Of a stretch of 64,000 nt of DNA, positions 42,866-45,227 are shown in pieces. The stretch is from assembly GCA_030765785.1 (NCBI GenBank), contig JAVCCC010000050.1:3629-67628 (forward strand), read 5' to 3'. The stretch comes from Candidatus Aceula lacicola. Its GTDB lineage: Bacteria > Omnitrophota > Gorgyraeia > Zapsychrales > Aceulaceae. The notes beneath the pieces were generated by a model. That model was not told where the DNA came from. It saw only the letters and a list, made by a program, of their open reading frames with translations, and made no database searches. Positions within the stretch are counted from its first letter, which is position 1. Each line of letters begins with the position of its first letter. A program made the position numbers and the translations under genes.

Positions 42866-43243
42866 TTAATTACTAAGTGAGATCTTATTTTTCAGGATGA
42901 CATCGATATATTGAGAAATGAACTTTTTGTCTTTATCTTTGATGTCGTTGAAATAAATGGCCGTGCGAAAACCTTTTTCGCCCTCCTGTGGCTGCGAACG
43001 TACCACGACTCCACAGCAAGATATCTTTTTTACAATCGTTTTATTTTTTTGCTTCATCGGAAGCAAGAGCTGAATCTTAAGCTTGGTCATGGGCTCCATC
43101 GGCTTGTCTACCAGACAATAAGCCCCAGAACAACTTAAGTTCTTGCTTTCGGTCACAATGTCAAAATCCTCGCTAGAAATCTTCAAAGGAATATTATTAT
43201 CCACGCGAGGATCTTTTCGTCTTTCACTAGAAGACATGATCAC
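42866..43243 (-). CDS. PilZ domain protein
   Basis: RRKDPR (RxxxR) and NLSCSG (NxSxxG) motifs; 125 aa. Confidence 0.7.
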   Translation of the reverse strand: MIMSSSERRKDPRVDNNIPLKISSEDFDIVTESKNLSCSGAYCLVDKPMEPMTKLKIQLLLPMKQKNKTIVKKISCCGVVVRSQPQEGEKGFRTAIYFNDIKDKDKKFISQYIDVILKNKISLSN

Positions 43244-43247
43244 TTTT

Positions 43248-43415
43248 TATGACTCCGTTTCTTCTGTAGATCCTGCTTTTGCTTCTTTATTCATTTTTAC
43301 CCAGCAATTTTTATTACAAAAATATTGCCCATTTCGATAATATTTCTTTGCCTTTAAAAGATGCTTTTTGCATGCAGGGCAATTCGTTACTTGTTCTTCT
43401 TTTTCCTTAGCCATA
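43248..43415 (-). CDS. small C4 zinc-ribbon protein (FCS/YacG/TRASH-like), 55 aa
   Basis: Translated by hand from the minus strand: MAKEKEEQVTNCPACKKHLLKAKKYYRNGQYFCNKNCWVKMNKEAKAGSTEETES. Spacing is CxxC-x18-CxxxC, and it lies 4 nt upstream of the PilZ gene. It is under 60 aa and so absent from the ORF track. Confidence 0.5.
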
Positions 43416-43480
43416 GTGTAATTCTACTCCTTTCTTAAGAATAAAACCAATATATTTATTATTTTATTTGAGAGATTGTA

Positions 43481-43837
43481 TTAATTGATATGGGATCCAA
43501 CGTATTGGCAGATATCTTTTCGAACTTCTGTGTTTGTATCTTCAAACTCTACACCTACTTGATAACGATCCGAATATGGAATCCTGTGGGCCCAAGCAAC
43601 ATGCCCTTTTGCCATTAACACATCAGGAATCCCGGATAAACGAAACTTAAAGACCATATCTGTATTGGGACGCACAAAACGGTTAAAATTAACACAAAGC
43701 CCACCCTCACTAATATCGGCTCCAAGGCAGCCTCCTGCATCATCATCAGGATCTGTGAACAAATAAGATATTGGCTCTTTAAAGTTGACTCTCTGAAATA
43801 TGCGTTTTTCGATTTTATCTTGATTTTCAATAAACAT
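43481..43837 (-). CDS. PilZ domain protein
   Basis: KRIFQRV and DISEGG motifs; 118 aa. Confidence 0.7.
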   Translation of the reverse strand: MFIENQDKIEKRIFQRVNFKEPISYLFTDPDDDAGGCLGADISEGGLCVNFNRFVRPNTDMVFKFRLSGIPDVLMAKGHVAWAHRIPYSDRYQVGVEFEDTNTEVRKDICQYVGSHIN

Positions 43838-43929
43838 GCCACTTCTCCTTAATGTGTTTTAAGGTTCCGTGGCTAATTAAAGTATAGCATATTTTTTTAG
43901 AGCGGCAACCACTTTTTTTTCATGCATTT

Positions 43930-44772
43930 ATGGACTTTACCAAAAACCATTCACATGATATAATTCACTTCATGTATAAGCAATTCTATGAACTTAAAGA
44001 AAATCCTTTCAATGTAACATCAGACCCGTCATTCTTTTTTTCCAGCGCTCATCACTCTGAGGCATTTTCTCATCTAACTTACGGCATCCAGCAACGCAAA
44101 GGCATCATCCTCATTACTGGTGAAATTGGAACCGGCAAAACAACACTTTGCCGTGCACTTTTAAACGCCCTTGATCAAAAAACAAAGACTGCTTTTATCC
44201 TTTATCCAAATTTCTCAGAACTTCAGCTCTTGCAAATGGTTATAAAAGACTTTGGCATTGAAGTCAAAAGCAAAAATAAATCTGCAATCATCAGCGCCCT
44301 AAACGACTTTTTGCTTAACGAAACGAGTCACGGGAATAATGTGGTTTTGATTATTGATGAATCGCAAAATCTTAAAGAATCCCAACTCGAGCAAATCCGG
44401 CTTTTGTCTAACCTGGAAACTGAAAAAGAAAAACTTTTGCAGATTATTCTTGTAGGTCAACCTGAATTGTGCCAAAAGCTAAAATTAACATCTTTGCGCC
44501 AGCTGAATCAGCGCATTTCAATTCGTTGTCATATCAAACCACTTGAAAAAACAGAACTTAAGAAATATGTCGTGCATCGCCTCAAGATTGCTGGATCTGA
44601 TGGGAAGATCAAGTTTACGAATGAAGCGATTGATGAAATTTATCAATATTCAGCTGGGACGCCCCGATTGATTAACATTGTTTGCGACAGAGCGCTTTTG
44701 GCTGGATTTATTGCAGAAACATTTACGATCGACTTTGCCATTATCAAGAAATGTGTTGAGGAGCTAGAATAG
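43930..44772 (+). CDS. ExeA/GspA/MshM-like AAA ATPase (cytoplasmic domain only)
   Basis: The N-terminus (FYELKENPFNVTSDPSFFF...LTYGI...GIILITGEIGTGKTTLCRAL) matches the GspA/ExeA family. Walker B LIIDESQNL. Likely start is MYKQFYEL at ~43972. Confidence 0.75.
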   Translation: MDFTKNHSHDIIHFMYKQFYELKENPFNVTSDPSFFFSSAHHSEAFSHLTYGIQQRKGIILITGEIGTGKTTLCRALLNALDQKTKTAFILYPNFSELQLLQMVIKDFGIEVKSKNKSAIISALNDFLLNETSHGNNVVLIIDESQNLKESQLEQIRLLSNLETEKEKLLQIILVGQPELCQKLKLTSLRQLNQRISIRCHIKPLEKTELKKYVVHRLKIAGSDGKIKFTNEAIDEIYQYSAGTPRLINIVCDRALLAGFIAETFTIDFAIIKKCVEELE

Positions 44773-44774
44773 CG

Positions 44775-45227
44775 ATGAGCATCATAAACGAAGCCCTCAA
44801 GAAGACTCAATCTATTTTAAGTAGCCAAAAAAATCAAGACGATCCAACTCAAAAAGACCCATGGATTAAAGCCGCTATGCTAATTATTATTGGCGGATTT
44901 CTAGGATGTGCTATTGTTTTTGGCACAATTATTCTATCAAACAACAACACATTGCCAAGCAAACCTTTGGAGAATGCGAAAACCATAAACGCAAATTCTT
45001 CATCGTCAACACCTAAGGATGCAACGGTCAAAAAACAACCTGCCGCTTCTTCAGGTATTGAGCTAAATGGTATTATGCAAACGGGCGATCAATACATGGC
45101 GCTTATCAACAACAAAATTGTTCGTCAAGGCGATGCCATCGACGACAAGAAGGTCTTAGATATTACAGAAAATAGTGTGAAAATTTTTGATAACGGAGAA
45201 GTGTTTGTCTTAAAACTAAACCCTTAA
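44775..45227 (+). CDS. GspB-like membrane protein (T2SS protein B C-terminal domain)
   Basis: One TM segment and a C-terminal GIELNGIMQTGDQYMALINNKIVRQGDAIDDKKVLDITENSVKIFDNGEVFVLKL, which resembles the GspB/ExeB C-terminal domain. Translationally adjacent to the GspA-like gene. Confidence 0.55.
   Translation: MSIINEALKKTQSILSSQKNQDDPTQKDPWIKAAMLIIIGGFLGCAIVFGTIILSNNNTLPSKPLENAKTINANSSSSTPKDATVKKQPAASSGIELNGIMQTGDQYMALINNKIVRQGDAIDDKKVLDITENSVKIFDNGEVFVLKLNP

What the first reader, a model, noticed from the sequence alone, without database searches (positions are those of the whole stretch)
42866..45227. PilZ / zinc-ribbon / PilZ trio divergent from a minimal GspA-GspB-like pair
Two single-domain PilZ c-di-GMP receptors sit on the minus strand with an unannotated 55-aa C4 zinc-ribbon gene between them, only 4 nt from the downstream PilZ. 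On the plus strand they face an ExeA/GspA/MshM-family AAA ATPase. That ATPase lacks the usual TM segment and periplasmic peptidoglycan-binding part. It is followed by a small one-TM protein whose C-terminus matches the GspB/ExeB C-terminal domain. No secretin, pilin or T2SS/T4P ATPase is nearby. This looks like a c-di-GMP-controlled module built on a stripped-down GspAB (secretin or envelope-assembly) pair, which is not a described combination.
Basis: partly seen in the sequence, partly recalled or inferred. Interest (0 to 1): 0.55.

Follow-up and report, generated by a model that had tools for sequence, protein, structure and literature searches.

The report
Minimal GspAB-like pair beside PilZ operon
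An uncultured Omnitrophota bacterium carries a stripped-down version of the GspA/GspB helper pair that other bacteria use to install outer-membrane secretin pores, next to a small operon of c-di-GMP sensor (PilZ) genes; the helper pair is well supported, but a functional link to the sensors is not shown.

Summary
All five ORFs exist as described. The window is from Candidatus Aceula lacicola (Omnitrophota).

**GspA-like ATPase.** The plus-strand ATPase (true start 43972, 266 aa) is a soluble AAA_22 protein of the ExeA/GspA/MshM/PEP-CTERM-ATPase group.

**GspB-like partner.** The 150-aa protein has a cytoplasmic helix, one TM helix, a disordered linker and a C-terminal HR domain. Its fold matches GspC, GspB/OutB and PilP, the secretin-N0-binding domains. 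Its own Pfam T2SSB hit is not significant. It follows the ATPase in 74 of 74 related loci. Its N-terminal MSIIxxALKK motif is present in 106 of 106 copies that have the ATPase and in 0 of 6 copies that lack it.

**PilZ genes.** Both keep canonical c-di-GMP-binding motifs. They form an operon with the zinc ribbon and a fourth, overlooked 53-aa membrane gene.

**Adjacency.** The PilZ operon sits beside the ATPase pair in 42 of 66 ATPase-centred loci and 22 of 36 zinc-ribbon-centred loci. The whole region of more than 15 kb is strongly syntenic housekeeping DNA, and each unit also occurs without the other.

**Verdict.** This is a GspAB-like secretin-assembly pair, a new variant outside Proteobacteria. 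c-di-GMP control is plausible but unproven.

The parts
   Evidence: ORF. It is called as a gene in L082 and L083. jackhmmer finds orthologues 1-50 nt downstream of PilZ_A in about 18 loci, with the conserved core FPIIIIRKLNYLT.
42866..43243 (-). PilZ_A: single-domain PilZ protein (125 aa from GTG; 123 aa from ATG 43237)
   Evidence: Pfam PilZ 36.2 bits against cutoff 22.5. R9, R13, S37 and G40 are conserved in at least 90% of 45 orthologues and N35 in at least 70%.
43247..43414 (-). ZnR: 55-aa basic C4 zinc-ribbon protein with core NCxxCxK...KRYYRNGxYYCNKxCW
   Evidence: Only weak sub-threshold family hits. The four Cys are nearly invariant in 42 orthologues. Three loci have lost three of the Cys but keep KRYYRNG. 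481 tblastn-confirmed relatives in metagenome contigs.
43481..43837 (-). PilZ_C: single-domain PilZ protein (118 aa), first gene of the minus-strand operon
   Evidence: Pfam PilZ 38.1 bits. R12, R16, S43 and G46 are conserved in at least 90% of 40 orthologues and D41 in at least 70%.
43881..43908 (-). Promoter-like site for the PilZ operon (TTGCCG, 16 nt, TG-n-TATACT), about 43 nt upstream of the PilZ_C ATG with a GGAG ribosome-binding site
   Evidence: Consensus scan. The -10 block is conserved in the intergenic alignment of relatives.
43936..43964 (+). Promoter-like site for the ATPase/GspB-like operon (TTTACC, 17 nt with TG, TATAAT). The -10 box ends 7 nt before ATG 43972, so the mRNA is probably leaderless.
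   Evidence: The same geometry is seen in the 14 sequences displayed from the alignment of the window and 28 related loci.
43972..44772 (+). D: soluble GspA/ExeA-like AAA+ ATPase (266 aa; the mechanical ORF starts at 43930)
   Evidence: AAA_22 E=1e-28. TIGR03015 313.9 bits over positions 1-266 of 269, against cutoff 324.5. Walker A G50-T57 and Walker B D129/E130 are invariant in 34 homologues. AlphaFold model pLDDT 87.6; nearest solved folds are ORC/Cdc6, MuB and TnsC. JGI names homologues 'general secretion pathway protein A'.
44775..45227 (+). E: GspB-like bitopic protein. Cytoplasmic helix 3-19 (MSIINEALKK motif), TM helix 29-56, disordered linker 57-96, HR domain 97-147.

Best explanation
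**The D-E pair.** The plus-strand pair is a minimal GspA/GspB-type secretin-assembly or scaffolding pair that is conserved across Omnitrophota. D is a soluble AAA+ ATPase. It most likely docks on the short, nearly invariant cytoplasmic N-terminal helix of E (MSIIxxALKK).

E crosses the inner membrane once. It extends a flexible linker of about 40 residues into the periplasm and ends in an HR domain of the kind that binds the N0 domain of secretins in GspB, GspC and PilP.

**Likely client.** The most probable client is a secretin encoded elsewhere in the genome, probably PilQ of the type IVa pilus, which is reported in 135 of 141 genomes of this class.

**The minus-strand operon.** It comprises PilZ_C, the zinc ribbon, PilZ_A and the 53-aa TM protein. 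It encodes two probable c-di-GMP receptors and has its own promoter. Its position next to D-E is an ancestral gene order that is often retained but dispensable. Regulation of D-E by these PilZ proteins is possible but not demonstrated.

**Shown:** domain identities, the fold of E, the obligate D-E gene pairing, co-variation of the N-terminal motif with D, and the conservation statistics.

**Inferred:** D-E physical contact, secretin binding, the identity of the secretin, and c-di-GMP binding.
For: **D family.** AAA_22 plus a full-length match to the ExeA/GspA/MshM-related model TIGR03015. Homologues are named gspA by JGI.

**Pairing.** E follows D in 74 of 74 loci. The D stop and E start are 2 nt apart, and a GAGGAG ribosome-binding site lies inside the 3' end of D.

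**Motif co-variation.** The motif is present in 106 of 106 E copies with D upstream and in 0 of 6 HR proteins without D. Those six include three lineages where an E-like gene occupies the same syntenic slot without D.

**Known biology.**
- The OutB HR domain binds secretin N0. GspA without a periplasmic region exists, and GspB without GspA exists (PMC9239104).
- T4aP is near-universal in Velamenicoccia (PMC10066038), and the genome belongs to that class.

**PilZ.** Canonical motifs are conserved. The two operons have separate back-to-back promoters.
Against: - No secretin or pilus/T2SS gene lies in the 64-kb window, so the client is unidentified.
- The window protein's own T2SSB and T2SSC Pfam hits are below threshold.
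- D scores just under the TIGR03015 cutoff and shows no significant BLAST similarity to E. coli K-12 GspA.
- The HR fold also occurs in non-secretin scaffolds (DotF, CdsD C-terminus).
- The peptidoglycan-binding part that is central to the ExeA mechanism is missing.
- The P. aeruginosa ExeA-like protein PA5037 affects piliation without changing PilQ multimers. An ExeA-like ATPase therefore need not act on secretin multimerisation.
Confidence: 0.55

Rival explanations
1. The PilZ-zinc ribbon-PilZ operon and the GspAB-like pair form one c-di-GMP-controlled module. On binding c-di-GMP, a PilZ protein (possibly with the zinc-ribbon adaptor) binds D or E and switches the ATPase or the secretin scaffold on or off.
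For: - A divergent PilZ or zinc-ribbon gene lies within 1.7 kb of D in 42 of 66 species-level loci. The background PilZ density is 0.28 per 10 kb.
- This adjacency is seen in 19 of about 23 D-sequence clusters (manual tally of the table).
- It includes loci where the upstream RluA/UvrB block is absent (L013, L022, L026, L046, L048, L050, L055, L058, L059, L061).
- It also includes loci with rearranged PilZ arrays in which a PilZ pair still abuts D (L066, L069, L072-L075).
- E-only lineages keep the divergent PilZ trio.
- Of 36 zinc-ribbon-centred loci, 22 have D-E next door.
- The c-di-GMP-binding motifs are conserved, and an HD-GYP phosphodiesterase is syntenic 2.5 kb away.
Against: - Adjacency is the only evidence.
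- The whole region of more than 15 kb is syntenic housekeeping DNA. AroB, for example, is adjacent to E in 47 of 62 loci with no obvious functional tie.
- A 13-locus clade has RecO, not PilZ, upstream of an intact D-E.
- Ten of 36 trio loci lack D-E. In L104, L151 and L159 AroB abuts the zinc-ribbon gene; L134 and L135 keep the trio with the RluA block but without D.
- The promoters are separate, with no obvious shared operator.
- Genes inserted between the trio and D are unrelated housekeeping genes.
- No fusion of PilZ to D or E was seen among the best 120 D hits.
Confidence: 0.2
2. D-E is not secretin-related. It belongs to an exopolysaccharide or PEP-CTERM-type export pathway, as do the XrtA-associated ATPases that D most resembles. 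E would tether a different outer-membrane or periplasmic partner. PilZ control would then resemble c-di-GMP control of polysaccharide export.
For: The best NCBIfam hit of D is TIGR03015, the XrtA/PEP-CTERM system-associated ATPase, at 313.9 bits over the full length. PilZ-domain control of polysaccharide synthases such as BcsA and Alg44 is established knowledge (from memory, not tested here).
Against: - The score is below the curated cutoff of 324.5.
- No exosortase, Wza-type exporter, chain-length or glycosyltransferase cluster lies next to D-E in the window or in the 80 related loci examined.
- E's domain matches secretin-binding HR domains.
Confidence: 0.1
3. D-E is an envelope or cell-division factor unrelated to secretion, embedded in a conserved envelope-maintenance block (site-2 protease, SPOR protein, LysM/M23 peptidase). 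It would use an HR-like beta-sandwich merely as a periplasmic protein-binding module.
For: - Stable synteny with S2P, a SPOR-domain protein, and a second AAA ATPase paired with a LysM/M23 peptidase.
- The fold is also used by DotF and the CdsD C-terminus.
- The position parallels that of DamX/PA5037 next to aroB in Proteobacteria (plus own knowledge).
Against: - The seven best structural matches are all secretin-N0 binders.
- E has sequence-level similarity to the HR domain of a type IV pilus PilO::HR protein.
- In L052 and L079, T2SS genes (gspD/G/E/F) lie 6-10 kb upstream of D-E.
Confidence: 0.1

Closest known systems
ExeA/ExeB (GspA/GspB) of Aeromonas and Vibrio type II secretion
   Same: An AAA+ (AAA_22-type) ATPase gene is followed immediately by a small bitopic protein. 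That protein's periplasmic HR domain binds the secretin, and the ATPase domain is needed for complex formation with the B protein (PMC4098917; PMC9239104).
   Different: D has no TM segment, no cysteine-peptidase-like domain and no PF01471 peptidoglycan-binding domain. The pair is not near any T2SS operon. It occurs in Omnitrophota, whereas GspB homologues were reported only in Gamma- and Betaproteobacteria.
Alteromonas/Pseudoalteromonas GspA-GspB archetype (Zhang et al. 2022, PMC9239104)
   Same: GspA lacks the periplasmic region and is paired with a GspB that carries the HR domain.
   Different: Those GspB proteins are notably longer, and some carry a cytoplasmic DUF3391 domain. E is among the shortest at 150 aa, with only an N-terminal docking-type motif. 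The phylum and genomic context also differ.
OutB/PulB (GspB without GspA) of Dickeya and Klebsiella
   Same: An HR-domain scaffold works without an ATPase partner. This parallels the Omnitrophota lineages L107/L110, L111 and L128, where an E-like gene sits alone in the same slot and has lost the N-terminal motif.
   Different: OutB has a C-terminal peptidoglycan-binding extension and is co-located with a pilotin gene. Neither feature is seen here.
PA5037 (PA14_66580), the ExeA-like protein of Pseudomonas aeruginosa beside the pilMNOPQ pilus cluster
   Same: An ExeA-like ATPase encoded away from any T2SS operon. Its loss reduces twitching motility and the number of pili (PMC6321873). From memory, the P. 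aeruginosa order is pilMNOPQ-aroK-aroB-PA5037, so aroB would be adjacent there as it is here (E is convergent with aroB, 4 nt apart).
   Different: PilQ multimers were normal in the mutant. No GspB-like partner is described, and the protein architecture was not compared here.
PilP and PilO::HR proteins of type IVa pilus machines
   Different: From memory, PilP is a lipoprotein encoded inside pilMNOPQ. E is TM-anchored, carries a cytoplasmic motif and is encoded with an ATPase among housekeeping genes.

Membership tests
GspB (T2SS protein B; Pfam PF16537 T2SSB) | Short cytoplasmic N-terminus, a single TM helix, a periplasmic linker and a C-terminal HR domain | tested here: met
   AlphaFold model: helix 3-19, TM helix 29-56, disordered 57-96, six-strand domain 97-147. 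The architecture is as described for OutB.
GspB (T2SS protein B; Pfam PF16537 T2SSB) | Periplasmic domain has the HR fold (two three-stranded antiparallel sheets forming a beta-sandwich) | tested here: met
GspB (T2SS protein B; Pfam PF16537 T2SSB) | Sequence match to the T2SSB model above the gathering threshold | tested here: not met
   13.2 bits against 28.4, E=0.071. At family level, 26 of 113 members hit T2SSB at E<=0.01 (best 7.4e-7), but more hit T2SSC (37) and CdsD_C (35).
GspB (T2SS protein B; Pfam PF16537 T2SSB) | Gene co-located with gspA (or with a pilotin gene) | tested here: met
   E follows the GspA-like gene in 74 of 74 evaluable loci.
GspB (T2SS protein B; Pfam PF16537 T2SSB) | [quoted passage not shown] | not testable with these tools
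   No multimer prediction and no experiment were available. The cognate secretin is not in the window.
GspA/ExeA | Cytoplasmic AAA+ ATPase domain (AAA_22) with Walker A and Walker B motifs | tested here: met
   AAA_22 E=1e-28. GxxGxGKT and DE are invariant. The model has an AAA+ fold.
GspA/ExeA | C-terminal TM segment followed by a periplasmic region with a peptidoglycan-binding domain (PF01471) | tested here: not met
   The 266-aa protein is fully covered by the ATPase model, with no PG_binding hit and no TM helix. The published Alteromonas archetype also lacks this region.
GspA/ExeA | Direct sequence similarity to an experimentally named GspA | tested here: inconclusive
   BLASTP against E. 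coli K-12 GspA is not significant (E=0.42). However, K-12 GspA/GspB are atypical (its GspB has no HR domain). Aeromonas ExeA was not available for comparison.
XrtA/PEP-CTERM system-associated ATPase (NCBIfam TIGR03015) | HMM score at or above the curated cutoff | tested here: not met
   313.9 bits against cutoff 324.5, although the match covers positions 1-266 of 269.
XrtA/PEP-CTERM system-associated ATPase (NCBIfam TIGR03015) | Encoded in an exosortase or exopolysaccharide locus | tested here: not met
   Public gene calls covering the whole window carry no exosortase or polysaccharide-export family.
PilZ domain c-di-GMP receptors (PF07238) | Pfam PilZ score above the gathering threshold | tested here: met
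   36.2 and 38.1 bits against 22.5.
PilZ domain c-di-GMP receptors (PF07238) | RxxxR and (D/N)xSxxG ligand-binding motifs | tested here: met
   PilZ_A has R9/R13 and N35-x-S37-x-x-G40. PilZ_C has R12/R16 and D41-x-S43-x-x-G46. These are conserved in 45 and 40 orthologues respectively.
PilZ domain c-di-GMP receptors (PF07238) | Binds c-di-GMP | not testable with these tools
   This needs a binding assay.
PilP (type IVa pilus alignment lipoprotein) | Encoded within a pilMNOPQ-type cluster | tested here: not met
   E is co-transcribed with an ATPase among housekeeping genes. Only the HR fold is shared. E also starts with a conserved cytoplasmic helix and a TM helix rather than a signal peptide.

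The most novel reading that the evidence does not exclude
The PilZ_C-ZnR-PilZ_A-p53 operon is a dedicated c-di-GMP input device for the minimal GspAB-like pair. In these ultra-small, probably predatory or parasitic Omnitrophota, second-messenger levels would gate installation or anchoring of the pilus or secretion secretin. They would do so through a PilZ/zinc-ribbon complex acting on a soluble GspA ATPase. That control point is not known in any secretion or pilus system.
Probability: 0.2. Interest if true: 0.6.

Novelty: new variant of a known kind. Interest (0 to 1): 0.4.

Why it matters
**Range of the GspAB system.** In the 2022 survey read here, GspB homologues were found only in Gamma- and Betaproteobacteria. 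Finding an obligate, phylum-wide minimal version in Omnitrophota extends the system's range. It also gives a name to a widespread 'hypothetical protein'. In this version the ATPase is soluble and the B protein is reduced to a docking motif, a TM helix, a linker and an HR domain.

**A testable interface.** The strict co-variation of the N-terminal motif with the ATPase suggests a concrete interface for how GspA talks to GspB. I did not find that interface defined in the papers read here.

**Biological setting.** Omnitrophota are reported as uncultured nanobacteria with host-dependent traits, and type IV pili are suggested to mediate attachment to host cells. A conserved secretin-assembly factor, possibly tied to c-di-GMP, bears on how they build that machinery.

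**If the PilZ link is real.** It would be a new regulatory entry point into secretin biogenesis.

Tried and rejected
1. **E. coli K-12 GspA/GspB as references.** K-12 GspB lacks an HR domain, and K-12 GspA shows no significant similarity to D. They are uninformative rather than contradictory.
2. **Profile of the E family against PDB sequences.** Only weak hits to GspC-HR (E=0.064 and 1.1). The fold search was needed.
3. **Looking for named GspB relatives of E.** I looked up long family members and searched with the E-like protein of a Gammaproteobacteria-labelled MAG. Only unnamed or Omnitrophota hypothetical proteins came back. My recollection that proteobacterial GspB proteins start with a similar MSxILDALRK motif therefore remains untested.
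4. **Anti-phage defence reading of D (PADLOC).** Only generic P-loop hits. Rejected also because the pair sits at a fixed position among housekeeping genes across the phylum.
5. **Genes inserted between the PilZ trio and D, or upstream of D in PilZ-less loci.** These are RecO, helicases, an HhH-GPD glycosylase, DUF4416, an M48 peptidase, DUF362, hybrid kinases and NUDIX. None has a link to secretion or c-di-GMP.
6. **A shared operator in the divergent intergenic region.** Only two separate promoters were found.
7. **Zinc-ribbon family assignment.** Only sub-threshold hits (PP0621 family, YacG, zf-FLZ, LIM). No family was assigned.
8. **Solved structure of a GspA ATPase domain.** None found. 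The nearest folds are ORC/Cdc6, MuB and TnsC.
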